Positions 15,608 to 44,511 of a stretch of DNA of 64,000 bases are shown piece by piece. Origin of the DNA: a virus. Its lineage: Duplodnaviria > Heunggongvirae > Uroviricota > Caudoviricetes. The position numbers and the translations under genes are program-made. The first letter of the stretch is position 1, and every line of letters begins with the position of its first letter. The stretch spans positions 1 through 64,000 of the IMG/VR virus record IMGVR_UViG_3300037418_003165. The stretch is one strand, 5' to 3'. The notes under the pieces are model-generated. The model was not told the origin of the DNA. It searched no databases and saw only the letters and a list, made by a program, of their open reading frames with translations.

Positions 15608-15771
15608 CCTTCGGGGGCGGAGCCTGGTGCGCTGGCGTGGGTTACTTCCACTGTTAATGGAGAGGTTGCAGGTTCGATTCCTGTCACACCCCCCGTAAGG
15701 ATCGGGTGTGTAGCTCAATTGGCAGAGCGCTATCACCTTCGCCGAATCTTTCTCAGGCCCCGCTCCCGAAA
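15608..15771 (+). ncRNA. Y-RNA-like (YrlA-type) ncRNA candidate 2, with a permuted tRNA-Asn-like domain.
   Basis: Hairpin ttcca-ctGTTaa-tggag. T-arm gcagg-ttcgatt-cctgt (15668-84). 3' acceptor cacaccc (15685-91) pairs perfectly with gggtgtg (15704-10) across a 12-nt loop. D-arm gctc-aattggc-agagc. A 17-bp closing stem forms between 15610-26 (ttcgggggcggagcctg) and 15753-69 (caggccccgctcccgaa). Confidence 0.6.
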
Positions 15772-29235: not shown

Positions 29236-29481
29236 TCAGACTGCGACGGGGGCGGTGACGGTGACGTCCTGCCAGTTGCCGTGGCGGGTCGAGGCCCGGA
29301 TGATCTCGCCGTCGGCGTTCAGGCGGAGCAACAGCACCACTTCCTGCCCGCGGTCGTTGCGCGTCCGGGCGAGCGACGCGAACTCGTACTCGGGGCCTTC
29401 GGTGATCGTGTAGCGGCGGCCGCCGTAGTGGATGACCTGGCCGACGTAGTGGTCCGCGGGCTTGAGATCCGGCTTCGTCAT
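29236..29481 (-). CDS. Hypothetical protein. First gene of the minus-strand operon.
   Basis: GAAGGAGG RBS, then ATG (MTKPDLK...). Confidence 0.55.
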   Translation of the reverse strand: MTKPDLKPADHYVGQVIHYGGRRYTITEGPEYEFASLARTRNDRGQEVVLLLRLNADGEIIRASTRHGNWQDVTVTAPVAV

Positions 29482-29498
29482 GTGCGCCTCCTTCATCG

Positions 29499-29580
29499 GG
29501 TGTACGTACACCTTAGCGTTGGGTGTACGTACACCGCAAGCTTGATAGGCTACCAATTTGTACGTACACCCCAGCGGCCG
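29499..29580. promoter_or_regulatory. Three copies of palindromic operator GGTGTACGTACACC in the divergent intergenic region.
   Basis: Copies at 29499-29512 and 29522-29535 are exact. The copy at 29567-29580 (tTTGTACGTACACC) deviates in its left flank. Confidence 0.7.
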
Positions 29581-29591
29581 AAGGAACACTC

Positions 29592-29789
29592 ATGCCGGAC
29601 CAACCCAAAACGCAGCACCGCTCGGTGCGCGTGCCGGATGACGATTGGATAGACCTCGAAACAGCTTCCGCCAGTGCGGGTTCCGACCGCGCCAAAGTGA
29701 TCAACTTGTTGATTCGCTGGTATTTGCGGCGGCCCGGCGCGAAGCTTCCGCCGCGTCCGCCAGCGGGCAATCGTGAAGGCGGCGGGTGA
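29592..29789 (+). CDS. Ribbon-helix-helix (Arc/CopG-like) DNA-binding protein, the likely operator-binding regulator.
   Basis: N-terminal RSVRVPDDDWIDLE beta-strand followed by helices. GAAGGA RBS. Confidence 0.6.
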   Translation: MPDQPKTQHRSVRVPDDDWIDLETASASAGSDRAKVINLLIRWYLRRPGAKLPPRPPAGNREGGG

Positions 29790-30277: not shown

Positions 30278-30528
30278 TGACGGATAACGCCTATGCAGCC
30301 GAGCGTGTGCAGGTTCGGTGCGTACTGGTCTTCGGCAGTGGGCCGGATGCGCGAGCGGAGCTGGAGACGCCGTGGCATCCGGTGCGGGACCCGATGGCGG
30401 TGCGCGCCGGTGATATCGCCGACCAGGCCGGCCTTCCGGTGGGGGAGTTGCCGGGGCGGCGGTTCTGGGCGGTGGGCAACGCCGAGGGTTTGAGTGGGTT
30501 TGAACTGGTGGACGATCCGCGAAAATAG
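30277..30528 (+). CDS. Hypothetical protein.
   Basis: ATGA overlap. Confidence 0.45.
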   Translation: MTDNAYAAERVQVRCVLVFGSGPDARAELETPWHPVRDPMAVRAGDIADQAGLPVGELPGRRFWAVGNAEGLSGFELVDDPRK

Positions 30529-30529
30529 A

Positions 30530-30618
30530 TGTTGCAAAACATGTGCCGTGTGTTGTAAAGTATGAAGTGTCGGAAGGGGGTCGGACCCCGACCGGCAGCA
30601 GTTTGACAACACAACAAT
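30530..30618 (+). promoter_or_regulatory. Repeated promoter-leader element, copy A.
   Basis: -35 TTGCAA, 18-nt spacer, -10 TAAAGT, then a GC-rich structured leader. About 89 bp, identical to copy B except in the spacer. Confidence 0.5.
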
Positions 30619-30633
30619 GAAAGGAAGCTCACG

Positions 30634-31014
30634 ATGAGCGAACGTTGGGACATGTTCAGCGCCGGACTCATTACGAATCTGGCGGGAATCGTGAAAGTCC
30701 TTGGGATGCTCCCCATTCCGATCGAAGTCAAGATCGAACCAGGTGGCGGAGACGAGATCGCGGACCTGGTCCGAGCTCAGAAGCTCCTCCAGGAAATCCC
30801 GATGCACGACATCCTGCGGGCCGCCTGCAACACGGCGATCCTGGACTGGATGACCGGCGTCACCCTCGGCTCGTTCGCTGACAGGCTCAGCGAGGATGAC
30901 GAGGATTGGGACTGGATGGTCGCCAGCGGCATCATCCAGATGCACCGGTGCCGAGACGAAATCGAGCTGGCGCTCGGAATTCTCTCCGGCAAGGTGGAGA
31001 TCGAGGAGGAGTGA
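30634..31014 (+). CDS. Hypothetical protein (paralog of 31698..32066).
   Basis: AAAGGAAG RBS. Similarity blocks with 31698..32066 (LPIPIEVKIEPGG vs PPIALPVFEPG). Confidence 0.55.
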   Translation: MSERWDMFSAGLITNLAGIVKVLGMLPIPIEVKIEPGGGDEIADLVRAQKLLQEIPMHDILRAACNTAILDWMTGVTLGSFADRLSEDDEDWDWMVASGIIQMHRCRDEIELALGILSGKVEIEEE

Positions 31015-31022
31015 CAAACACC

Positions 31023-31052
31023 GAGGGCCCGGCGAACACTCGCCGGGCCCTC
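31023..31052 (+). terminator. Perfect 12-bp GC hairpin (gagggcccggcg-aacact-cgccgggccctc).
   Basis: Lies immediately after the stop at 31014. Confidence 0.55.
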
Positions 31053-31171
31053 GGCCTCTCGGGTGGGCGTAACGCCCCCATGTGAAGTCTGGGGCCGGAA
31101 GGGCGGGCCGAAGCCCAAAGTCGGAACCCCACCGGCCAGCAGTTTGACCAACTCGAAAGGAGGTCGCCGAC

Positions 31172-31582
31172 ATGGTAGCGCGATCGAAGAACGAAACGCC
31201 AGGGCGCGTCATCGCGCCGGAAATTGCTGAGCGGTACGGCCGCGAGCTTTCGACCGTTCAGCGGCAGTGGATGGCCAGCAGCGTGTGGCCTGCAGCGGTC
31301 GGCAAACGTGGTCGCTGGAACGTGTTCGACGCCGACGCGGTCGATCGCATCGTGCGCGAGCACTTCATTCGCCCCACCGCGACAGCCGGCCGTCCGGACG
31401 ACCTCCTGACAGTGGCCGAAATTGCCGAGTACACGGGGCTGAGCGCATCGACGATCCGCTCGGACATCTCGCGCGGGCGTATCCAGCGCGACCCAGACGA
31501 CGAGTCCGACGGGGTGAAGCGGTGGAGGCGCGCGACGATCGATGCGGCGATGGCCGGACGTCAGCGGTACAGGCACCGCTGA
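31172..31582 (+). CDS. Helix-turn-helix DNA-binding protein (excisionase/MerR-like).
   Basis: LLTVAEIAEYTGLSASTIRSDISRG. AAAGGAGG RBS. Confidence 0.55.
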   Translation: MVARSKNETPGRVIAPEIAERYGRELSTVQRQWMASSVWPAAVGKRGRWNVFDADAVDRIVREHFIRPTATAGRPDDLLTVAEIAEYTGLSASTIRSDISRGRIQRDPDDESDGVKRWRRATIDAAMAGRQRYRHR

Positions 31583-31600
31583 AAATTCTCCCCAAAGAAG

Positions 31601-31688
31601 TGTTGCAAAACATGTCTCCAATGTTGTAAAGTATGAAGTGTCGGAAGGGGGTCGGACCCCGACCGGCAGCAGTTTGACAACACAACAA
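31601..31688 (+). promoter_or_regulatory. Repeated promoter-leader element, copy B.
   Basis: Identical to copy A except for the 8-nt -35/-10 spacer. Confidence 0.5.
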
Positions 31689-31697
31689 AGGAGCATC

Positions 31698-32066
31698 ATG
31701 AACCATGATGAGAGGCGCCGCGAGATCGGCAAGCGCATCACCTACGGGTGGGTGCTGATGTGCAAGATCTTCGCTTTGCTCACCCCGCCGATCGCCCTTC
31801 CGGTATTCGAGCCGGGCAACCTGCCCCAGCTCGAGGAGGCCGCGGTTCGGGCCCGGGCCCTGGTCAAGGACCTTCCGCTGGACGCGGAAACCACCGGCCT
31901 GCTCGACCTGGGGCTACTCGAATGGCTCACAGCGGTCGCGCTGTGCAAGTTCGAGTCCTACGGGCCGTACGAGCATCTGCTGGACGCGGCGACGCACTCG
32001 CTGATCCGGCACTCGCTGATCATGCAGGACGTGGGCGAGAAGTTCGATTGGTTCCCCGAGAGCTGA
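31698..32066 (+). CDS. Hypothetical protein (paralog of 30634..31014).
   Basis: AAGGAG RBS. Confidence 0.5.
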   Translation: MNHDERRREIGKRITYGWVLMCKIFALLTPPIALPVFEPGNLPQLEEAAVRARALVKDLPLDAETTGLLDLGLLEWLTAVALCKFESYGPYEHLLDAATHSLIRHSLIMQDVGEKFDWFPES

Positions 32067-32260
32067 TCTAACGCCAGGGGGTCGCTGGCCAGCGCGAAGC
32101 TGGTCAGCGACCCCCGTTCTCGTTCACCGGCCGATACGGAAACCCCAGGTCGCAGCACGCACCGCTTGACGCGGTGGCCGATTGGATGGTGGATTGCTGC
32201 GTGTAACCGACAGATGATCTTGACCGAGCGCGGAAGCGCAGATGGAATGGTGATGTCGAC

Positions 32261-33040
32261 ATGCCGCAAGATTCCAGACCTCTGAGATTCACCAGCGCCG
32301 CCGACGCGCTCACCGGTGACCGCGTGATCTGCGGCGAAGCCCGCGACATCATGGCCCGGCTGCCGTCCGGATCATTCGATGCCCTGATCACCGACCCGCC
32401 CTACTGCTCCGGCGGCACCACGACCAGCGAACGCACCACCCGCAGCGCGGTCGAGAAATACGTCTCCTCCGACTCGGTGAGCGGCAAGGCCATGCCCGAC
32501 TTCCCGGACCAGCGCGACCAGCGCGCATTCACCCTCTGGTCGTCGTTCTGGCTGACCGACGCCCTACGCCTCGTCCGCCCCGGCGGCCAGGCGCTCGTTT
32601 TCACCGACTGGCGGCAGCTACCTGCATTGAGCGACGCGCTGCAGGTCGCCGGGTGGCGCTGGCGCGGAATCGTAGTGTGGCGCAAGCCCGCCGCCCGCCC
32701 GCAGCCCGGCTTCAAGAACGAATCGGAATACATCCTGTGGGCGTCCAACGGGCAGCTGGACGCCGACCACAAGCCGCCATGCCTCCCTGGCGTCTACAGC
32801 TACTCCGCGCCGAAAGGCCGCAAGCGCCAGCACATCACGGCCAAGCCGGTCGAGCTGATGCGCGACCTCGTGCGCACCGTCCAGCCCGACGGCCTGATCC
32901 TGGACCCGTTCGCCGGCTCCGGCACCACCGGCGTCGCAGCGCGCGCCGAAGGCCGGCGGTTCCTGTGCATCGAAGGCACACCGGAATACAGCCAGATATC
33001 GGCCGTGCGACTCGCCGATCCCGACTCCGCCGCCGCGTAG
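32261..33040 (+). CDS. DNA methyltransferase (N6-adenine/N4-cytosine, beta-class).
   Basis: DPPY motif (ITDPPYCSGG) precedes the FxGxG motif (DPFAGSGTT). Confidence 0.75.
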   Translation: MPQDSRPLRFTSAADALTGDRVICGEARDIMARLPSGSFDALITDPPYCSGGTTTSERTTRSAVEKYVSSDSVSGKAMPDFPDQRDQRAFTLWSSFWLTDALRLVRPGGQALVFTDWRQLPALSDALQVAGWRWRGIVVWRKPAARPQPGFKNESEYILWASNGQLDADHKPPCLPGVYSYSAPKGRKRQHITAKPVELMRDLVRTVQPDGLILDPFAGSGTTGVAARAEGRRFLCIEGTPEYSQISAVRLADPDSAAA

Positions 33041-36000: not shown

Positions 36001-36612
36001 TTGACCGTCATCGCGGCGATCGCGACCCCCGACCGGGTCATCATGGGCTCCGACACCGCCTGCGACTATGGCGGCACCACGATCTACCGGGCGAACGGAA
36101 AAATTCGCGAGCTGCGCACCAGCGACGAAGCCGAAGGCGAACGCGTCCTGCTCGGCTCCGCCGGCAACTCGGGAATCGGCCCATGCGCCGCGCGCACCGT
36201 CCACATCAAGTCCCTGCCCTCGGATCCGGACGACATCGTTGCCGTGGACGATTGGGCCGAAGCGATCGCCGAAGCGATCGCGGGTGCCCTGGCCGACGCC
36301 AACCCGCCGCTGACGCGCGCGGGCGACACCCACAGCAGCGCCGCGGCCGATGGTGTGATGCTCCTGGCCTGGCGCCAGCATCTGTGGACCATCACCGCGC
36401 ACTCGGCGATCCGGCCGGCGAACGGCATCGCCGCCATCGGATGCGGATGTGACCTCGCGCTCGGCGTCATGCTCAGCGGCGAGTACTTCGAGGCCGATCC
36501 CGGCGACTCCGTTGCGCTGGCGGTGAAACTGGCCAGCCGCTACATCGACGGCTGCCGCCTCGACCACCGCGGCCCGCTCATGCACGAGACCACCCCGGCC
36601 GGTGCCCGATGA
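36001..36612 (+). CDS. Ntn-hydrolase/HslV-like peptidase-fold protein.
   Basis: TTG start with an AAGGGAG RBS. N-terminal MT..VIAAIATPDRVIMGSDTA has Thr at position 2, like proteasome-type Ntn nucleophiles. Confidence 0.4.
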   Translation: MTVIAAIATPDRVIMGSDTACDYGGTTIYRANGKIRELRTSDEAEGERVLLGSAGNSGIGPCAARTVHIKSLPSDPDDIVAVDDWAEAIAEAIAGALADANPPLTRAGDTHSSAAADGVMLLAWRQHLWTITAHSAIRPANGIAAIGCGCDLALGVMLSGEYFEADPGDSVALAVKLASRYIDGCRLDHRGPLMHETTPAGAR

Positions 36613-37538
36613 TCATCGCGTTCCTCGGCAACTTCGGCGTCGACTACACCTCCGAGACCCACCACGCTGCCAGCCTCGAAGCCCTGGGCCACACCGTGAT
36701 CCGCCTGCAGGAGACGAAAGCCACCGCCGACGACATCGTCACCGCGGGCGTCGACGCCGACCTGTTCGTCTGGGTACACACGCACGGCTGGGACACCCCC
36801 GACATCGGCATCGCGCTGACCATCCTCCGCGACGCCGGCACCGTCCTGCTGTCCTATCACCTGGACCGCTGGATCGGACTGCGCCGCCAGGCCGATATGC
36901 GCGCCGACGCACCCTACTGGCAGCTCGACCACTTCTTCACCGTCGACCGCGTCCAAGCCGACTGGCTCAACACGCACACCAGCATGCGCGGCCACTACAT
37001 CCCCGCCGGCGTCTACGGCCCCGAGTGCTACATGGCCACCCCGCGCACCCGCTTCGACGTCGCATTCGTCGGCAGCAAGGGCTACCACCCGGAGTATCCC
37101 TACCGGCCGCGCCTCGTCGAGTGGCTCGCCGACACCTACGGCGACCGGTTCCGGCACTACGGTGGCGGAGGCCTGCCCACCGTGCGCGGCGCCGAGCTGA
37201 ACGGCGTCTACGCGGATGCGAAAGTCGTTGTCGGAGACAGCCTCTGCCTCGACCCGCAATACGCCGGGCACTACTGGTCCGACCGAATCTACGAGACCAC
37301 CGGCCGCGGCGGATTCATCATCCACCCGCGTCTGGCCGGCCTCGACAGCCAGTTCATCGACGGCGAGCACGCGGTCTTCTACGACCACGGCAACCTCGAC
37401 CAGCTGCGCGAGCTCATCGACCACTACCTGGCCGCTGATGACGAACGTGAAGCGATCCGCCGCGCCGGCCACGAGCACACCCGCGCCACCCACACCTACG
37501 CGCACCGGTGGGCCGAGATCCTGGAGACCATCGCGTGA
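36609..37538 (+). CDS. Glycosyltransferase (CgeB/YkvP-like GT1-fold).
   Basis: ATGA overlap. The C-terminal half resembles the CgeB-like GT domain as I recall it. Confidence 0.5.
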   Translation: MIIAFLGNFGVDYTSETHHAASLEALGHTVIRLQETKATADDIVTAGVDADLFVWVHTHGWDTPDIGIALTILRDAGTVLLSYHLDRWIGLRRQADMRADAPYWQLDHFFTVDRVQADWLNTHTSMRGHYIPAGVYGPECYMATPRTRFDVAFVGSKGYHPEYPYRPRLVEWLADTYGDRFRHYGGGGLPTVRGAELNGVYADAKVVVGDSLCLDPQYAGHYWSDRIYETTGRGGFIIHPRLAGLDSQFIDGEHAVFYDHGNLDQLRELIDHYLAADDEREAIRRAGHEHTRATHTYAHRWAEILETIA

Positions 37539-38251
37539 CCGAGATGGTCGAAACGCTGATCAACGGCCGCTGGACGCTGAAGCTCCCCGAGCACCGCGCG
37601 GCGCGGCCCGAATGGGACCTCCACAACGGCGGCTGGGAGCGGGCCCGCCTCGACCACATGCACTCCACCACCAGGCCCGGTGACCGCGTGCTGTACATCG
37701 GCGCCGAAGAGGGCGACATGTGCGCGCTGCTGCGGAGCTGGGGCGCGCGCCTGATGCTCGTCGAGCCGAACGAGGCCGTCTGGCCGAACATCAAGGCCAT
37801 CTGGAACGCCAACGGCTTCGACGAAGTGCCGTGGACATTCGTCGGCTTCGCCGGCCGGGAGCGCCGCGACGACGAATGGGGCTGGGAAACCCGCGAATGG
37901 CCTCCCTGCGCGGACGGCCCGGTCATCGGTGACCACGGATTCAAGGAACTCCGCGATCCGGGCGACCGGCCGATCATCACGATCGACGAAATCACCCGGA
38001 GCGGCTTCGTTCCCGACACGATCTCGATGGACATCGAGGGCGCCGAATGGGAAGCCCTGCAGGGCGCCGAGCAGACGCTCACCGACCACCGGCCGCGGAT
38101 CTACCTGAGCCTGCACCCGGAATTCCTGATCGACCAGTACGGCAAGTACTCCTACGAGGTACGCCGGTGGATCATCGACCACGGCTACCGGGAAACCCTG
38201 CTGGACTACCAGCACGAAGCGCACTTCGTCTACGAACGGACCGTGGCGTGA
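37535..38251 (+). CDS. FkbM-family SAM-dependent methyltransferase.
   Basis: MDIEGAEWEAL matches the characteristic FkbM motif. GTGA overlap. Confidence 0.65.
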   Translation: MTEMVETLINGRWTLKLPEHRAARPEWDLHNGGWERARLDHMHSTTRPGDRVLYIGAEEGDMCALLRSWGARLMLVEPNEAVWPNIKAIWNANGFDEVPWTFVGFAGRERRDDEWGWETREWPPCADGPVIGDHGFKELRDPGDRPIITIDEITRSGFVPDTISMDIEGAEWEALQGAEQTLTDHRPRIYLSLHPEFLIDQYGKYSYEVRRWIIDHGYRETLLDYQHEAHFVYERTVA

Positions 38252-38592
38252 GCGCGGGAATGCCAGCCAGCATCTGGCTCGTCAAGTTCGGCGAGCTGGT
38301 GCGCGACTACTTCGGTGAAGCGCCCTACCAAGTCGGATCATCGTTGTTTTCCAAGAGCTTTCGCGATGTCGACGTCCGGCTGATCCTCGACGACGAGGAC
38401 TTCGAACAGCGGTTCGGCGCCATACGAAGCGCGGAACTCAACCCGAAATTGGCGGCGATCACCTTGGCGTTCTGCGCGCTCGGTCGTGAAATGACCGGCC
38501 TGCCGATCGACTTCCAGATCCAGCCCGTGTCGTGGGCAAACGAGAAGTACCCGACCAACCGGAGTCCCTTGAGCTCGATCGAGCACGTATGA
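38248..38592 (+). CDS. Small nucleotidyltransferase-fold-like protein.
   Basis: VGSSLFSKSFRDVDVRLIL resembles a minimal nucleotidyltransferase GS...D.D motif. Alternative ATG at 38260. Confidence 0.35.
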   Translation: MSAGMPASIWLVKFGELVRDYFGEAPYQVGSSLFSKSFRDVDVRLILDDEDFEQRFGAIRSAELNPKLAAITLAFCALGREMTGLPIDFQIQPVSWANEKYPTNRSPLSSIEHV

Positions 38593-38831
38593 CCGCCGAA
38601 TGGCCGCTGATGACCATCACATTCACCCCGGACACCCGGGACGAATGGATCCTGGCCCTTCGCCACGCTCCGTACGGCACAGTACTGGCCGACTGCGACG
38701 GTGACATCTGGACAAAGCTGGGCGGCCCAGACGGGTATAACTGGCTGCGCACGCACGGCGGATGGGCGAGCGCCGAGGAAGTGGCCGACTACGCCCCGTT
38801 CCGCGAGCCTCCGATCGGGTCGTGTCCGTGA
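38589..38831 (+). CDS. Small hypothetical protein.
   Basis: ATGA overlap. Confidence 0.4.
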   Translation: MTAEWPLMTITFTPDTRDEWILALRHAPYGTVLADCDGDIWTKLGGPDGYNWLRTHGGWASAEEVADYAPFREPPIGSCP

Positions 38832-40432
38832 TCCCGGTCGTGCGCCTAGCCCCCGGTGATCAGTGGGACCAGAACATGCTCCGTCTGCTGCTCGCCGACC
38901 GCCTCTACCCGCACGGCCTGGACCTTGAGGAAGTCGAAGGGTGGCCCGACGCTGCCGGCATCGTGCTCGTCATCCCGGGCCGCTACTGGCACAACCGCAC
39001 GGCCGAGATCAGCGCCGCGATCGCGCGCTACGCATGGGTGCTGGCCATCCGGACCTCGGATGAGGAAGCGCTCCTCGACATCAGCGCGATCGCACACCCG
39101 AACATTCTGTGGTGGGTGCAGACTCCGCGCACCGACAGCGACCACACCGCGGTGCGCTACCTGCCCCTCGGCTTCCCGCCGCACTTCAACGGCCTGCCGC
39201 GCATGGGCCCGAAGCGCGTCGATGTCTTCCTGTCCGCGCAGAACACCCACGAGCGCCGCCGCGAATGCTTCGACGCGCTCACCCAGGTCGACCGCAGCAA
39301 GACCGTGCACGAGACCCCCGGCTTCACTCAAGGCCTGCCCGTGCACGACTACGCCGGCCGCATGCGCGCCACCCGCGTCGCGCCGTGCCCGTCCGGAGCG
39401 GTCAGCCCGGACAGCTTCCGCGTCTATGAAGCCCTCGAGTCGCACGCCATCCCGATCGCTGACGACATCTCGCCGGTCGACCCGAGCCAGGGCTACTGGG
39501 CCGCGATGTTCCCGGACGCGCCCTGGCCGACGATCAGCCGCTACAGCGACCTGCCCGGCTATATCGGCGACAGCCTCATGCACTACCCACGGCTGGCCAA
39601 TCGGACGGCCGCCTGGTGGATCGCGCAGAAACGGCGCATGGGGGAGCGGCTAATCCGTGATCTGGACGCGCTCGGCGCCGCACCGGCGCCGCGGCGGCCG
39701 CCGATCACCGTGCTGATATCGAGCAGCCCGATCCCGTCGCACCCGAGCACCGCGGTGCTCGAGGAGACCGTCGAATCGGTGCGCGACCGGCTACCCGACG
39801 CCGAGATCGTGCTCATGCTCGACGGCGTGCGCGCCGAACAGGAGCACGCCCGCACCGACTACGAGCGCTATATCCAGCGCGTGCTAGAGCTCGCAGACCA
39901 CCAGTGGCACAACGTGTTACCGCTGATCTTCGACGAGCACCTGCACCAGGGCGAATGCACCAAACGAGCCCTCGAATACGTCCGCACGCCGCTAATCCTG
40001 TTCGTCGAGCACGACACCCCGCTGGCCGGCGGTATCCCGTTCGACGACATGGCGGCCGCCGTCACCAGCGGCAGCGCCAACGTCATCCGCCTGCACCACG
40101 AAACCAGGATCCTCGACGAGCACCGCTATCTGATGCTCGACGACGGCCCGCGCGTCGTCGACGGCGTGCCGATGCAGCGAACGATCCAGTGGAGCCAGCG
40201 CCCACACCTGGCATCGGTCGCCTGGTACCGCGGCCTCCTCGATCGCGCCTTCCCACACGGAGAGCGCGACTTCATCGAGGACAAGGCGTACGGGCTGCTG
40301 ATCAACGACCACCGGCGCGACGGCCACATGGGCTGGCTCGGCTGGCGCACCTGGATCTACACCCCCGACGGCAACGTACTGCGCAGCTACCACACCGACG
40401 GCCGGAACGGAGCAGACAAATATGTCGGGTGA
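38828..40432 (+). CDS. Two-domain glycosyltransferase (C-terminal GT-A/GT2-like).
   Basis: ITVLISSSP...LMLDGV...FVEHDTPL is GT-A-like, with a DxD-type ED motif. GTG overlap start. Confidence 0.55.
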   Translation: MIPVVRLAPGDQWDQNMLRLLLADRLYPHGLDLEEVEGWPDAAGIVLVIPGRYWHNRTAEISAAIARYAWVLAIRTSDEEALLDISAIAHPNILWWVQTPRTDSDHTAVRYLPLGFPPHFNGLPRMGPKRVDVFLSAQNTHERRRECFDALTQVDRSKTVHETPGFTQGLPVHDYAGRMRATRVAPCPSGAVSPDSFRVYEALESHAIPIADDISPVDPSQGYWAAMFPDAPWPTISRYSDLPGYIGDSLMHYPRLANRTAAWWIAQKRRMGERLIRDLDALGAAPAPRRPPITVLISSSPIPSHPSTAVLEETVESVRDRLPDAEIVLMLDGVRAEQEHARTDYERYIQRVLELADHQWHNVLPLIFDEHLHQGECTKRALEYVRTPLILFVEHDTPLAGGIPFDDMAAAVTSGSANVIRLHHETRILDEHRYLMLDDGPRVVDGVPMQRTIQWSQRPHLASVAWYRGLLDRAFPHGERDFIEDKAYGLLINDHRRDGHMGWLGWRTWIYTPDGNVLRSYHTDGRNGADKYVG

Positions 40433-40604
40433 CATCACCGACGAGGAACAGCAGCTGGTGGCCGGCATGCCGAAGCATGTGGCCGCCGGCTATATCCGCG
40501 CCAAGCGCGCTGCTGAACAGAAGCGAGCGAAACGCGCTCCCGGCGAATGGGATTGGGACGCCGTCGCGGAGGCTATCGCCGCCATGGGAGACCTCGCCCG
40601 ATGA
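40422..40604 (+). CDS. Small hypothetical protein.
   Basis: Listed ORF overlapping the upstream stop. Confidence 0.35.
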   Translation: MSGDITDEEQQLVAGMPKHVAAGYIRAKRAAEQKRAKRAPGEWDWDAVAEAIAAMGDLAR

Positions 40605-41644
40605 CCCTCGGCCTGATCGCGCGCGCGGACGACACCGGCCTGGGGATCCAGACCTGGGAATTCGCCCGCCACATGCACCCGGACCGCGTGATGGTCATCG
40701 ACATCTCGCACCTCAAACGCAACACCCTGCACCCCGACCGGTTCCCGGGCGCGACGATCGTCCACGGCTTCCCCGACGCCACCGACATCGAATACTTCCT
40801 CGACGGCCTGGACGTCGCGTTCACCGCCGAGAGCACCTACGGGCCGCTGCTGCTGCCCACGGCCGAACGCGCGGGCGTGCGCACCGTCGTCCAGTACAAC
40901 TACGAATTCCTCGACGAGCGGCCCGAACACGGCACCGCGGCAACAGTTCTGGCCGCGCCGAGCAGCTGGCACTACGACGACGTCGAGCACCCGGGCAAGA
41001 TCATGCTGCCGGTGCCGATCGCCACCAGCCGATTCCCGAAGCGCGAGACCACAGACCGGGCCCGGCGATTCCTGCACGTAATCGGCCGGCCCGCTATCCA
41101 CGACCGCAACGGCACCGCCGACCTCGTCCAGGCCCTGCGGTTCGTCCGCGCCGATATCGAGGTCGTCTTCGCGTGCCAGGACCGCCGCTACATCAGCGAC
41201 TTCACCGCCGAGGTGAACTTCCCGCCGAACATCAAACTCACCTGCCTCAGCGAGCAGGCGAACTACTGGGACCTCTACCGCGACATCGACGCGCTGATCA
41301 TGCCCCGCAAGTTCGGCGGCCTGTGCCTGCCCGTCCAGGAAGCGCTCGGCGCCGGAATCCCGGTGATCATGCCCGACATCGCGCCGAACAACACCTGGCT
41401 GCCCAAGGACTGGCTCGTGCCCGCGACGCGCACCGGCGAATTCAAGGCGCGCCGAATGATCGACCTGCACATGGTCGACCACATCGCCCTCGCGGCCCGA
41501 ATCGACCTGCTCGCCGGTGACAGCGACTTCTACTGCGGCGCGGTCGAATCCGCGCACCAACTCGCCGATGCCCTCAGCTGGGACGCCATGCGCCCCCAGT
41601 ATGAGCAAGCCCTCGCCGGCCGACCCGCAAGGAGCGCCGCGTGA
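40601..41644 (+). CDS. GT-B glycosyltransferase (GT4-like).
   Basis: PVQEALGAGIPVI corresponds to the EX7E region of retaining GT4 enzymes. ATGA overlap. Confidence 0.6.
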   Translation: MTLGLIARADDTGLGIQTWEFARHMHPDRVMVIDISHLKRNTLHPDRFPGATIVHGFPDATDIEYFLDGLDVAFTAESTYGPLLLPTAERAGVRTVVQYNYEFLDERPEHGTAATVLAAPSSWHYDDVEHPGKIMLPVPIATSRFPKRETTDRARRFLHVIGRPAIHDRNGTADLVQALRFVRADIEVVFACQDRRYISDFTAEVNFPPNIKLTCLSEQANYWDLYRDIDALIMPRKFGGLCLPVQEALGAGIPVIMPDIAPNNTWLPKDWLVPATRTGEFKARRMIDLHMVDHIALAARIDLLAGDSDFYCGAVESAHQLADALSWDAMRPQYEQALAGRPARSAA

Positions 41645-44351: not shown

Positions 44352-44423
44352 TCCCGGTTGGTGTAGTCGGCAGCACAGCGGACTTTGGTTCCGCGAGTCC
44401 AGGTTCGAGCCCTGGGCCGGGAG
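44352..44423 (+). tRNA. tRNA-Gln (anticodon TTG).
   Basis: Manual cloverleaf. Acceptor tcccggt/gccggga. D-arm gtgt-agtcggca-gcac. Anticodon arm gcgga-ctTTGgt-tccgc. Variable loop gagt. T-arm ccagg-ttcgagc-cctgg. Discriminator g. No encoded CCA. Confidence 0.7.
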
Positions 44424-44511
44424 CTTGCCATCAAGAGCACTTGAACTCGCGGGCCCGCAATCAAGTTTGGGCGCCCGTCCTTGAGTCCGTCGCGATCCTG
44501 CGAGGAGGTCG

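What the first reader, a model, noticed from the sequence alone, without database searches (positions are those of the whole stretch)
30530..32066. Duplicated 89-bp promoter-leader element driving paralogous genes
Copies A (30530-30618) and B (31601-31688) are identical except for 8 nt that fall exactly in the spacer between TTGCAA (-35) and TAAAGT (-10). The repeat extends into a GC-rich hairpin-forming 5' leader (gtcggaagggggtcggaccccgaccggc) and the sequence cagcagtttgacaacacaacaa before the RBS. Each copy precedes one member of a paralog pair (30634-31014 and 31698-32066). A truncated third copy of the leader (about 31120-31160) precedes the HTH gene at 31172. This suggests a co-regulated, possibly leader-structure-controlled gene set.
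Basis: seen in the sequence. Interest (0 to 1): 0.6.

Follow-up and report, generated by a model that had tools for sequence, protein, structure and literature searches.

The report
Repeated phage promoter–leader RNA cassette
An actinobacterial phage carries two near-identical copies and one expanded copy of a promoter fused to a conserved RNA-hairpin leader; related prophages share the element, which probably co-controls a few small early genes, but it has not been tested experimentally.

Summary
The repeat is real. Copies A (30523-30617) and B (31594-31688) are 92% identical, and within 30530-30617 all five differences lie in the promoter spacer. It is not a plain segmental duplication, because the genes behind the copies share only 28% protein identity. 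The same element occurs in about ten related Nocardia-type prophage loci. Each copy has TTGCAA-N17/18-TAnnnT, then a two-stem hairpin that starts 6-7 nt after the -10 (the expected +1), then a single-stranded tract, then a Shine-Dalgarno site. Pairing is kept in 96.9% of cells across 16 distinct copies. The "truncated" third copy (31087-31163) is really an expanded copy without a promoter. It sits before a tandem winged-helix regulator gene, and five of its 13 pairs show compensatory changes. The loop motif and the post-hairpin tract change together in both copy types within each genome, which suggests a phage-specific trans factor. The tract resembles actinobacterial rrn boxA/boxC. I narrowly favour an RNA-level leader that loads a factor, like an rrn or lambda nut site. 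A plain 5' stabiliser and a DNA operator are close rivals. No Rfam family or phage record matches. Transcription start and function are inferred, not shown.

The parts
30523..30617 (+). Copy A of the promoter-leader cassette (type 1), full repeat
   Evidence: 95-nt direct repeat, 92% identical to 31594-31688. Covariance model R1 scores it 86.4 bits, E 4e-24.
30532..30561 (+). Predicted primary-sigma promoter of copy A: -35 TTGCAA (30532-30537), 18-nt spacer, -10 TAAAGT (30556-30561). Expected +1 at about 30567-30569.
   Evidence: Read from the sequence. The hexamers are conserved and the spacer varies in 16 homologous copies. This pattern occurs only at A and B in the window, against 0.36 expected. 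No start-site data exist.
30568..30597 (+). Leader hairpin A: UGUCGG / AA / GGGG / loop GUCGGA / CCCC / GA / CCGGCA
   Evidence: Minimum-energy fold. The same fold is predicted for all 16 copies. 96.9% of cells are paired, with GC>AU and GC>CG double changes and U.G<>U-A changes.
30598..30617 (+). Single-stranded tract GCAGUUUGACAACACAACAA, boxA/boxC-like and CA-rich, followed by the SD AAAGGAAG at 30620-30627
   Evidence: Matches 14 of 20 positions of the actinobacterial rrn boxA/boxC 20-mer taken from L052, among the top 14 of 345,752 windows. It is unpaired in the fold.
30634..31014 (+). Gene A, 126 aa, a small four-helix-bundle protein of unknown function (A/B family, phrog_33636-like)
31021..31054 (+). 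15-bp perfect GC-rich hairpin closing cassette A, with no U tract
   Evidence: Inverted repeat I12. It is conserved with covarying stems in L010, L047, L049 and L051. The terminator scan does not call it.
31062..31079 (+). Small extra hairpin (GGGCG-UAA-CGCCC core) between the gene-A hairpin and the type-2 leader
   Evidence: Fold. Equivalent GGGG-ACNA-CCCC hairpins occur in L010, L047 and L049.
31087..31163 (+). Copy C (type 2): a promoter-less, expanded leader. Outer stem GGCCGG (31093-31098) / CCGGCC (31132-31137), inner hairpin GGGC-CGAA-GCCC, unpaired AAAGUCGGAA (loop motif at 31120-31126), tract GCAGUUUGAC (31139-31148), SD GAAAGGAGG.
   Evidence: Model R1 hit, E 0.013, with a 20-nt insertion in the loop. 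RNAalifold consensus of 9 type-2 copies: 13 pairs, 5 with compensatory changes, 94% paired, 0 of 500 shuffles as good.
31172..31582 (+). Regulator gene, 136 aa: two tandem excisionase/MerR-type winged-helix domains
   Evidence: Pfam HTH_17 4.7e-8. AlphaFold2 shows two beta-alpha-alpha-beta-beta-alpha units. Per-domain Foldseek matches are BldC, Pukovnik Xis, RdfS and MerR N-domains; the whole-chain match is TraN. The family has 186 members, next to A-family genes in several genomes by their neighbouring locus tags.
31594..31688 (+). Copy B (type 1): -35 at 31603-31608, -10 at 31627-31632, hairpin 31639-31668, tract 31669-31688, SD AAAGGAG 31687-31693
   Evidence: Model R1 scores it 82.8 bits.
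31698..32066 (+). Gene B, 122 aa, distant paralog of gene A
   Evidence: P0130 is the identical protein on the same 90.5-kb JGI contig.
32077..32115 (+). 17-bp hairpin with a U-rich tail (GUUCUCGUUC) closing cassette B; terminator-like
   Evidence: Inverted repeat I10. Terminator scan.

Best explanation
The element is a conserved regulatory cassette of a lineage of temperate actinobacterial (Nocardia-type) phages. A host primary-sigma-type promoter (TTGCAA-N18-TAAAGT) launches an mRNA whose first nucleotides form a conserved two-stem hairpin. The hairpin is followed by a conserved single-stranded tract, a CA-rich spacer and a strong Shine-Dalgarno site. In the window two full cassettes drive the paralogous genes A and B. 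An expanded copy of the same leader, without a promoter, sits between gene A's closing hairpin and the tandem winged-helix regulator gene. The three genes therefore share one leader signal. Four things are shown here: the repeat, its family-wide conservation, the pairing with compensatory changes, and the genome-specific co-variation of loop and tract. Two things are inferred: that transcription starts at the foot of the hairpin, and that the leader acts as RNA. The mechanism I favour is that the hairpin loop and the adjacent boxA/boxC-like tract form a loading site on the nascent RNA, arranged like the boxB-boxA-boxC signal of rrn operons and the lambda nut sites. A phage-specific factor would read the loop and host Nus-type factors would read the tract. 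RNA polymerase would then run through the GC-rich hairpins that close each cassette and reach the regulator gene and the genes beyond. I put about 0.8 on the general reading (a promoter plus a functional structured RNA leader that defines a small regulon). I put about 0.3-0.35 on the specific nut-like antitermination reading; the confidence value given is for that specific mechanism.
For: The repeat is unique and non-random. Homologous copies occur in L010, L034-L037, L041, L047, L049, L050 and L051, always on the coding strand and at a fixed distance before a start codon. The hairpin begins 6-7 nt after the -10 in every copy. Type 1 shows 96.9% paired cells, against 40-78% when the partner columns are slid, with 2 double-change pairs and many U.G<>U-A changes. 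Type 1 is more stable on the sense strand in 13 of 15 copies. Type 2 shows 5 of 13 pairs with compensatory changes and 0 of 500 shuffles as good. Its arms are 20 or more nt further apart than in type 1, which fits RNA and not a dimeric DNA site. The loop motif and the tract change together in the type-1 and type-2 copies of one genome, while the stem between them differs. The spacing from loop to tract varies from 15 to 20 nt. The tract matches 12-16 of 20 positions of a real actinobacterial rrn boxA/boxC taken from L052. These are the best-scoring 20-mers in 173 kb, and L041_b shares the 10-mer UUGAGAACUC with the rrn sequence. The rrn order is stem-loop boxB, then boxA, then boxC, and boxC binds NusA in M. 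tuberculosis (PMC2724277). Every cassette gene ends in a strong hairpin. In the window the regulator gene has no recognisable promoter, and in L010 the gene after B starts 56 nt after B's stop codon.
Against: There are no transcript data, so the start site is inferred from promoter geometry only. The boxA-like core UUUGA is replaced by UUCAC in L050 and L051, and type-2 copies score only 8-11 of 20. The comparison with boxA was made after the fact and rests on one rrn leader plus my memory of the M. tuberculosis sequence. No arginine-rich N-like protein was identified. The first gene after each leader encodes a helical bundle. Most closing hairpins lack a U tract, so they may not terminate at all, and antitermination would then be unnecessary. 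Type-2 hairpins are not more stable on the sense strand (2 of 9). Covariation in type 1 is modest because the sequence is highly conserved.
Confidence: 0.33

Rival explanations
1. High-expression and stability cassette with no dedicated factor. The 5'-terminal hairpin protects the mRNA from 5'-end-dependent RNases (E and J). The CA-rich unstructured tract plus the strong SD favours translation. The 3' hairpin after each gene blocks 3' exonucleases. The type-2 hairpin protects the regulator mRNA after cleavage between the two hairpins.
For: The hairpin is flush with the expected +1 and stable at -13 to -20 kcal/mol in all copies. The tract is unpaired and an SD follows. Every cassette gene ends in a GC hairpin, mostly without a U tract. 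The type-2 copy lies directly after such a 3' hairpin. 5'-terminal stabiliser stem-loops of the ompA type are well established (from my own knowledge).
Against: It does not explain why the loop sequence and the tract are conserved and change together in both copy types of a genome while the stems diverge. It also does not explain the resemblance of the tract to rrn boxA/boxC.
Confidence: 0.3
2. DNA operator. The block from loop motif through 3' stem to tract (GTCGGA...GCAGTTTGAC) is a bipartite binding site for the neighbouring tandem winged-helix protein. This protein would autoregulate through the copy in front of its own gene and control the A/B cassettes. It could act as a roadblock repressor like the phiC31 CIR sites or the L5 stoperators, or as a DNA-loaded AlpA/Q-type antiterminator.
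For: The regulator gene is always adjacent and preceded by the type-2 copy. It has two Xis/BldC-like DNA-binding domains. GTCGGA occurs twice in direct repeat 11 nt apart in type 1. Loop motif and tract co-vary by genome. AlpA, a small phage-type HTH regulator, binds a promoter element and makes polymerase bypass a terminator (PMC9371919).
Against: The stems covary so as to keep pairing, including U.G pairs that are mismatches in a DNA palindrome. The arms of type 2 are 20 or more nt further apart. The loop-to-tract spacing varies from 15 to 20 nt, even within L010. The immunity-switch operators of the window are a different palindrome, GGTGTACGTACACC x3. The protein does not reach the Pfam Phage_AlpA model.
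Confidence: 0.2
3. The repeats matter mainly as recombination substrates. They would be mobile regulatory cassettes that shuffle small genes, like the PeSL elements of T4-type phages. This is compatible with any of the readings above.
For: A complete cassette (promoter-leader, DUF3846 gene, hairpin) lies between the regulator gene and the B-type gene in L010 and L050 but is absent from the window. Copies within a genome are more alike (93% and 91%) than orthologous copies between the window and L010 (85% and 81%), which indicates homogenisation. PeSLs are repeated promoter plus stem-loop units that flank ORFans and mediate modular shuffling (PMC2839356).
Against: There are only 2-4 copies per genome. 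The hairpin lies inside the transcript, not before or within the promoter as in PeSLs. The strong cross-genome conservation of structure points to a regulatory role first.
Confidence: 0.1
4. Recent segmental duplication with no regulatory meaning.
For: Two near-identical copies lie 1071 nt apart.
Against: Identity stops at the repeat ends. The adjacent genes share only 28% protein identity. The element is conserved in many genomes and is better conserved than the neighbouring proteins.
Confidence: 0.02

Closest known systems
rrn antitermination leader (boxB-boxA-boxC) and lambda nutL/nutR
   Same: A hairpin lies next to a conserved single-stranded tract in the leader RNA. The tract resembles actinobacterial rrn boxA/boxC. 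One copy lies right after the promoter and one after the first gene, like nutL and nutR. The hairpin loops are phage-specific, like boxB among lambdoid phages (the last two points are from my own knowledge). The order and roles of the rrn elements are in PMC2724277.
   Different: No N-like protein was found. The boxA-like core is not kept in all copies. The internal copy lies after, not before, the nearest hairpin. No antitermination has been shown.
PeSL (promoter-early stem-loop) cassettes of T4-type phages RB49/phi1 (PMC2839356)
   Same: Repeated units of a sigma-70-type promoter, a GC stem-loop and an SD lie in front of small genes of unknown function. Gene-content differences between relatives are bounded by the repeats.
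   Different: The PeSL stem-loop lies upstream of or within the promoter, or just before the start site, and serves as a terminator for upstream transcription. PeSLs number about 50 per genome. Here the hairpin is transcribed as the 5' end of the mRNA, a separate hairpin closes each cassette, and there are 2-4 copies.
Cluster K mycobacteriophage SAS/ESAS repeats (PMC3203893)
   Same: Oriented repeats lie upstream of start codons of non-structural genes of actinophages. Their consensus is subcluster-specific, which suggests a dedicated factor.
   Different: SAS is a 13-bp motif at the ribosome-binding site. Departures in the ESAS inverted repeats do not support RNA pairing, whereas here they do. 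There is no sequence similarity.
phiC31 early promoters with conserved inverted repeats, and L5 stoperators (from my own knowledge)
   Same: Multiple conserved promoters or sites lie in intergenic regions of the early region of a temperate actinophage. One copy is associated with the regulator's own gene.
   Different: Those are DNA sites bound by the phage repressor. Here the immunity operators are a different palindrome, and the inverted repeat behaves like an RNA helix.
5'-terminal mRNA stabiliser stem-loops (ompA type; SP82 and T4 leaders; from my own knowledge)
   Same: A stable hairpin lies at the very 5' end of the transcript, followed by an unstructured leader and an SD.
   Different: Generic stabilisers need no conserved loop or flanking tract.
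AlpA-type DNA-loaded antiterminators (PMC7969949, PMC9371919)
   Same: A small phage-type HTH regulator is encoded next to promoters followed by hairpins. JGI labels the window protein 'AlpA'.
   Different: The window protein is a tandem two-domain protein and matches HTH_17, not the AlpA model. No binding element has been defined.

Membership tests
Primary-sigma (sigma-70/SigA-type) promoter | -35 and -10 hexamers with 16-19 nt spacing that match the consensus | tested here: inconclusive
   TTGCAA-18-TAAAGT matches 8 of 12 positions of the E. coli consensus and is not called by the scan, whose threshold is 9 of 12. It fits the actinobacterial TANNNT -10 (from my own knowledge).
Primary-sigma (sigma-70/SigA-type) promoter | Hexamers conserved and spacer free to vary among homologous copies | tested here: met
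   In 15 of the 16 copies the TTGYAA and TAnnnT hexamers (CTTCCA -35 in L035_m) are kept while the spacer varies; L041_b shows no comparable -35. A and B differ only in the spacer.
Primary-sigma (sigma-70/SigA-type) promoter | Transcription initiates 6-8 nt downstream of the -10 | not testable with these tools
   No transcript data are available.
rrn / lambda nut-type antitermination site | boxA sequence matching the host consensus | tested here: inconclusive
   Most type-1 copies match 12-16 of 20 positions of the L052 rrn boxA/boxC and are the top-scoring windows of 173 kb. L050, L051 and the type-2 copies match only 8-12 of 20. Only one rrn reference was available.
rrn / lambda nut-type antitermination site | Stem-loop (boxB) adjacent to boxA on the nascent RNA | tested here: met
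   A conserved hairpin lies 0-2 nt upstream of the tract.
rrn / lambda nut-type antitermination site | A cognate RNA-binding antiterminator or Nus factors bind, and polymerase reads through downstream terminators | not testable with these tools
   No candidate N-like protein was found. Hairpins exist at 31021-31054 and 32077-32115, but read-through was not measured.
5'-terminal stabiliser stem-loop | Stem-loop within a few nt of the mRNA 5' end | tested here: inconclusive
   The stem starts 6-7 nt after the -10 in all copies, so it lies at the expected +1. The true 5' end is unknown.
PeSL cassettes (T4-type phages) | Repeated promoter plus stem-loop plus SD units before small ORFans, with indels bounded by the units | tested here: met
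   The DUF3846 cassette is present in L010 and L050 and absent in the window.
PeSL cassettes (T4-type phages) | Stem-loop placed before or within the promoter, or just before the start site, acting as terminator of upstream transcription (PMC2839356) | tested here: not met
   The hairpin lies after the -10, at or after the expected +1, with no U tract. Separate hairpins close the upstream genes.
Repressor operator (phiC31 CIR / L5 stoperator type) | The same site is used at the immunity switch | tested here: not met
   The switch region has three copies of GGTGTACGTACACC, which is unrelated to the hairpin. Model R1 finds no further copy in the window.
Repressor operator (phiC31 CIR / L5 stoperator type) | Fixed half-site spacing, with changes that preserve sequence rather than pairing | tested here: not met
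   Arm separation is 6-8 nt in type 1 and more than 20 nt in type 2. Changes preserve pairing, including U.G pairs.
Cluster K SAS/ESAS | 13-bp GGGATAGGAGCCC at the ribosome-binding site; inverted repeats whose departures do not support pairing | tested here: not met
   The motif is absent in the sequence. Departures here do support pairing. The definition comes from PMC3203893.
Any Rfam 15 family | Score at or above the gathering threshold | tested here: not met
   Only the tRNA passes in the window. A permissive scan of 30480-32200 gives only chance-level hits on the two gene-closing hairpins and flanking sequence (one weak hit overlaps copy B on the opposite strand, 14.9 bits, E 8.4).
AlpA (Phage_AlpA) regulators | Match to the family model | tested here: not met
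   Pfam gives HTH_17 and related HTH models and no Phage_AlpA hit at E <= 0.01. Foldseek finds only generic Xis, BldC and MerR-type domains.

The most novel reading that the evidence does not exclude
The leader is an rrn-mimicking boxB-boxA-boxC antitermination signal with phage-specific hairpin loops. That would make it the first nut-like processive antitermination system described for phages of Actinobacteria. The neighbouring tandem winged-helix protein, or another phage factor, would read the loop, and host NusB/NusE/NusA would read the tract.
Probability: 0.25. Interest if true: 0.8.

Novelty: new variant of a known kind. Interest (0 to 1): 0.5.

Why it matters
Gene regulation in actinobacterial phages is known mainly from repressors and DNA sites such as stoperators, the phiC31 inverted repeats and the SAS/ESAS repeats. 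This would be a conserved, structured RNA leader that is shared by several early genes and recurs in Nocardia, Nonomuraea and related prophages. Whether it proves to be a stabiliser, a factor-loading site or an antitermination signal, it offers a compact and portable promoter-leader module for expression in high-GC actinomycetes. Its parts are clearly delimited and can be swapped: promoter, hairpin loop, tract and closing hairpin. The genome-specific loop variants provide a natural specificity test. The element also marks a small, uncharacterised regulon (a four-helix-bundle family, DUF3846 and a tandem Xis/BldC-like regulator) at the start of the early operon.

Tried and rejected
- **Phage records.** Megablast and blastn of the region against 50,697 phage records, and tblastn of the regulator protein, found no match. 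Only the terminase finds relatives, namely M. abscessus prophages at 63% identity.
- **Exact-pattern scans.** Of the eight IMG/VR scans, most gave chance hits. One pattern recovered three true prophage contigs.
- **Rfam.** No family matches.
- **Upstream ORF.** The ATG at 30562 opens a 14-codon frame that ends in the tract. The frame is not kept in L010 or in the L034-36 group, so I rejected it.
- **Leader attenuator.** I rejected this because no U tract follows the hairpin.
- **RNase III site.** I judged this unlikely because the stems are only 6 + 4 bp.
- **Regulator against PDB sequences.** Nothing informative came up.
- **Strand asymmetry of folding energy.** It supports a sense-strand RNA for type 1 but not for type 2.
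- **boxA literature.** The Arnvig 2004 and 2008 and Beuth 2005 papers were not held. A search for the sequence string found only unrelated primers. I therefore took the rrn reference from a 16S-bearing IMG/VR contig.
- **AlphaFold database fold library.** It was unavailable.
Full report
**1. Observation.**
The repeat finder reports 30523-30617 and 31594-31688 as a 95-nt direct repeat with 92% identity. The 39-nt leader pattern and the 40-nt promoter pattern each match exactly these two sites in 64 kb, where 0.00 matches are expected from shuffles. All five fall in one 6-nt block of the 18-nt spacer between TTGCAA and TAAAGT, and three more mismatches lie just upstream of the -35. The pattern TTGYAA-N16-19-TANNNT occurs only at these two places in the window, against 0.36 expected.

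The two downstream ORFs are distant paralogs. BLASTP gives 28% identity over 65 residues with E 5e-4, both match phrog_33636, and both fit one family alignment with conserved LPIPI, RAR..L..PM and DW motifs. The motif CAGCAGTTTGAC occurs a third time, at 31137-31148, before the HTH gene.

**2. Context.**
The window is a high-GC (about 66%) tailed-phage genome or prophage. Its terminase large subunit is 63% identical to those of M. abscessus prophages. A portal gene and a 1762-aa tape-measure-sized ORF follow. A 100%-identical homolog (120 aa, from a later start) sits on a 90.5-kb JGI contig.

About 1 kb upstream lies what looks like the immunity switch. Three copies of the palindrome GGTGTACGTACACC sit between a leftward gene and a rightward Arc/RHH-like gene. 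After these come an endonuclease VII gene, an 83-aa gene, cassette A, the regulator gene, cassette B, a DNA methylase gene and further rightward genes. The element therefore lies at the start of the rightward early region. It is unrelated in sequence to the switch operators.

**3. The element is a family.**
No phage record matches at the DNA level, and no Rfam family matches. Following the proteins led to related loci:
- L010-L013, from a metagenome assembly and short-read assemblies.
- L047/L048 (Nocardia salmonicida), L049, L050 (N. abscessus) and L051 (N. gipuzkoensis).
- Four IMG/VR prophage contigs, L034-L037.

nhmmer and a covariance model (R1) find 16 distinct full copies, which I call type 1. 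Each copy has these parts:
- TTGYAA, then 17-18 nt, then TAnnnT.
- 6-7 nt later, a hairpin: a 5-7-bp stem, a small internal loop, a 3-4-bp GGGG/CCCC stem and a 6-8-nt loop.
- The tract AGCAG-N-UUGA-N-AAC, a CA-rich stretch, an SD and a start codon.

In the window, R1 with filters off finds only A (86 bits), B (83 bits) and the third copy at 31087-31163 (16 bits, E 0.013). The antisense strand scores 11 bits.

Thirteen of the 16 copies precede members of the A/B family, two precede DUF3846 genes, and one precedes an unrelated 156-aa gene. Every one of these genes is followed within a few nucleotides by a strong GC hairpin. The family is rare: 24 A/B-type proteins at E <= 0.001 among 5.8 billion clusters, all named hypothetical or left unnamed.

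**4. It is not a simple duplication.**
The element is 81-85% identical between the window and L010. The adjacent proteins are only 48% (A) and 64% (regulator) identical. Paralogous copies within a genome (window A/B 93%; L010 copies 1 and 4, 91%) are more alike than orthologous copies between the window and L010 (85% and 81%). The repeats therefore evolve in concert or under a genome-specific constraint.

A whole cassette (promoter-leader, DUF3846 gene, hairpin) lies between the regulator and the B-type gene in L010 and L050, and it is missing in the window. Short-read assemblies break inside the element.

**5. The hairpin behaves as an RNA helix.**
For type 1, on the model-fitted alignment of 16 distinct copies:
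- 96.9% of cells form standard pairs, against 40-78% when the 3' partners are slid.
- One pair changes GC to AU and one changes GC to CG (twice).
- Three pairs switch between U.G and U-A or between C-G and U.G.

This covariation is modest because the sequence is highly conserved, and the alignment leans towards the structure. U.G pairs make the sense strand more stable in 13 of 15 copies, by 3.7 kcal/mol on average.

The third copy is the more informative one. In nine genomes, the region before the regulator gene folds into an outer stem, a middle stem and an inner hairpin, plus an unpaired stretch. The outer stems differ widely but stay complementary:
- GGCCGG/CCGGCC in the window.
- GACCGGC/GCCGGUC in L010, L047 and L049.
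- GGGCCUGGCAGGG/CCCUGCCAGGCCC in L034 and L036.
- GACCGGCGAGG/CCUCGCCGGUC in L037.

On a plain MAFFT alignment, 5 of 13 pairs show compensatory changes and 94% of cells are paired. None of 500 shuffles reaches the observed score, and slid controls give 0-1 such pairs. This copy (type 2) is the type-1 hairpin with about 20 extra nt in the loop. It keeps the loop motif, the 3' stem and the tract. It is expanded, not truncated. Type-2 hairpins are not more stable on the sense strand (2 of 9), so strand asymmetry supports RNA only for type 1.

In the window group I see no promoter in front of type 2. In L037 it has its own TGCAA-N17-TAATAT promoter.

**6. Signs of a trans-acting factor.**
The loop motif and the tract differ between genomes but agree between the type-1 and type-2 copies of each genome:

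| Genome(s) | Loop motif | Tract |
|---|---|---|
| Window, L010, L047, L049 | GUCGGA(A) | GCAGUUUGAC (type 2 of L047: GCAGUUCGAC) |
| L037 | GUAGGAA | CACCUUGA |
| L036 | UUGGCAG | GCAGAYUGA |
| L034 | CUGGCA / AUGGCA | GCAGAYUGA |

The 3' stem lying between loop and tract is different in the two types, for example CCCCGACCGGCA against CCCUGCCAGGCCC in L036. Two separated segments are thus kept in step while the segment between them diverges. That is hard to explain by gene conversion and points to recognition by a genome-specific factor. This is an inference, resting on about two independent changes.

The distance from loop to tract varies from 15 to 20 nt, and within L010 it takes the values 15, 17, 17 and 19. 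This fits separate recognition on RNA better than a rigid two-half-site DNA operator.

**7. The tract resembles rrn boxA/boxC.**
An IMG/VR contig carrying an actinobacterial 16S gene gave a real rrn leader, GCGUUGUUUGAGAACUCGAUAGUGUGU, about 130 nt upstream of the 16S 5' end. It agrees with the M. tuberculosis sequence as I recall it. I scored all 345,752 20-mers of 173 kb of phage loci against GTTGTTTGAGAACTCRATAG. Only 14 windows reach 14 of 20, and the type-1 tracts listed below supply the one 16/20 window and both 15/20 windows:
- L041_b: 16 of 20, with UUGAGAACUC identical to the rrn sequence.
- L035_m and L010_3: 15 of 20.
- Window A, L010_1, L035_p and L036: 14 of 20.

L050, L051 and the type-2 copies score only 8-12 of 20. 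In rrn leaders the order is stem-loop boxB, then boxA, then boxC, and boxC binds NusA in M. tuberculosis (PMC2724277). The boxA consensus drifts between phyla (PMC7665894). The resemblance is suggestive. It is also post hoc, rests on one reference sequence, and does not hold for all copies.

**8. The neighbouring proteins.**
The A/B protein is a confident four-helix bundle (pLDDT 94.8) with only generic structural matches.

The 136-aa regulator is predicted as two tandem beta-alpha-alpha-beta-beta-alpha winged helices. Per-domain matches are Streptomyces BldC, mycobacteriophage Pukovnik Xis, RdfS and MerR N-domains, and the whole-chain match is TraN of pIP501. Pfam gives HTH_17 and no Phage_AlpA hit. 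Its family of 186 proteins is spread over Nocardia, Nonomuraea, Spongiactinospora and Streptomyces prophages, and in several genomes it carries a locus tag adjacent to that of an A-family gene. More distant members, such as L038, lack the element.

**9. Mechanism.**
I put about 0.8 on the general reading. Under it, the element is a primary-sigma-type promoter fused to a functional, structured 5' leader RNA that marks a small regulon of A/B genes, DUF3846 and the regulator gene.

For the specific mechanism three readings are close:
- **(a) Nut-like or rrn-like loading site (about 0.3-0.35).** A single mechanism accounts for the hairpin, the phage-specific loop, the boxA/boxC-like tract, the internal second copy, the hairpins closing every cassette and the promoter-less regulator gene.
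- **(b) Plain 5' stabiliser with a translation-friendly leader (about 0.3).** It has the stronger prior and explains both the hairpin flush with +1 and the 3' hairpins without U tracts. It leaves the conservation of loop and tract unexplained.
- **(c) Bipartite DNA operator for the tandem winged-helix protein (about 0.2).** This would resemble phiC31 or AlpA. It explains the linkage to the regulator gene and the co-variation, but not the compensatory stems, the variable spacing or the 20-nt insertion.

A role as a recombination module like the PeSLs of T4-type phages (PMC2839356) is compatible with all three.

**10. Comparison with known systems and novelty.**
- The closest in architecture are the PeSL cassettes. 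There, however, the stem-loop lies before or within the promoter and acts as a terminator.
- The closest in proposed function are the rrn and lambda nut sites. Membership is untested beyond a partial boxA match and an adjacent hairpin.
- The cluster K SAS/ESAS repeats are the nearest actinophage precedent for oriented repeats upstream of start codons. They lack support for pairing and share no sequence with this element (PMC3203893).

I found no description of this element in Rfam, in the phage records or in the papers searched. I rate it a new variant of a known kind (repeated phage promoter-leader cassettes) with interest 0.5. The nut-like reading would be considerably more interesting if confirmed.

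Noticed in passing
window 29499-29512, 29522-29535, 29557-29570: Three copies of the palindrome GGTGTACGTACACC (the third with 2 mismatches) lie between a leftward gene (ORF 29236-29589, likely start near 29483) and a rightward Arc/RHH-like gene (ATG 29592, ending at 29789). This looks like a classical three-operator immunity switch.
   Followed up: partly
window 30530-30543 and 30552-30565 (also 31601-31614 and 31623-31636): The promoter holds a 14-nt direct repeat, YGTTGYAAWNYATG, once over the -35 and once over the -10, 22 nt apart. It is kept in the ten Nocardia-group copies. It may be a binding site for a head-to-tail DNA binder such as the tandem winged-helix protein.
   Followed up: partly
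window 31062-31079: A small extra hairpin (GGGCG-UAA-CGCCC core) lies between the gene-A hairpin and the type-2 leader. Equivalents (GGGG-ACNA-CCCC) occur in L010, L047 and L049. The 150-nt intergenic region is therefore three consecutive structures.
   Followed up: partly
window 30562-30606: An ATG directly after the -10 opens a 14-codon frame that ends at the TGA inside GTTTGAC. The frame is not conserved in L010 or in the L034-L036 group, so it is probably not a real upstream ORF.
   Followed up: yes
L009, L011, L013 (short Logan contigs): These contigs begin or end inside the element, so short-read assemblies break at this repeat. Copy numbers taken from such assemblies will be underestimated.
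   Followed up: no
L010 5660-6110 and L050 771-1190, against window 31583-31600: A complete cassette (promoter-leader, DUF3846 gene, closing hairpin) lies between the regulator gene and the B-type gene in two relatives and is absent in the window. The indel is bounded by the repeats.
   Followed up: partly
window 15625-15694 and 44352-44424: tRNA-Asn(GTT) and tRNA-Gln(TTG) genes lie inside the phage-like sequence. Only the second passes the Rfam tRNA threshold.
   Followed up: no
window 36609-41644: A run of genes resembling glycosyltransferases and a methyltransferase (phrog_28745, phrog_8156, phrog_2170) lies in the early region, which is an unusual load for a phage. A DNA N4/N6 methylase gene lies at 32261-33040.
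   Followed up: no
L035 4926-4992 (minus strand): One relative carries a type-1 copy with a different promoter (TATAGT, no TTGCAA) on the opposite strand. It drives an A/B-family gene that converges on the regulator gene, so the leader can be combined with other promoters.
   Followed up: partly
L052 1010-1040 (minus strand): An IMG/VR 'viral' contig contains an actinobacterial 16S gene with its leader (boxA/boxC GUUGUUUGAGAACUCGAUAGUGUGU). It is probably host DNA, or a prophage call that runs into an rrn operon.
   Followed up: no
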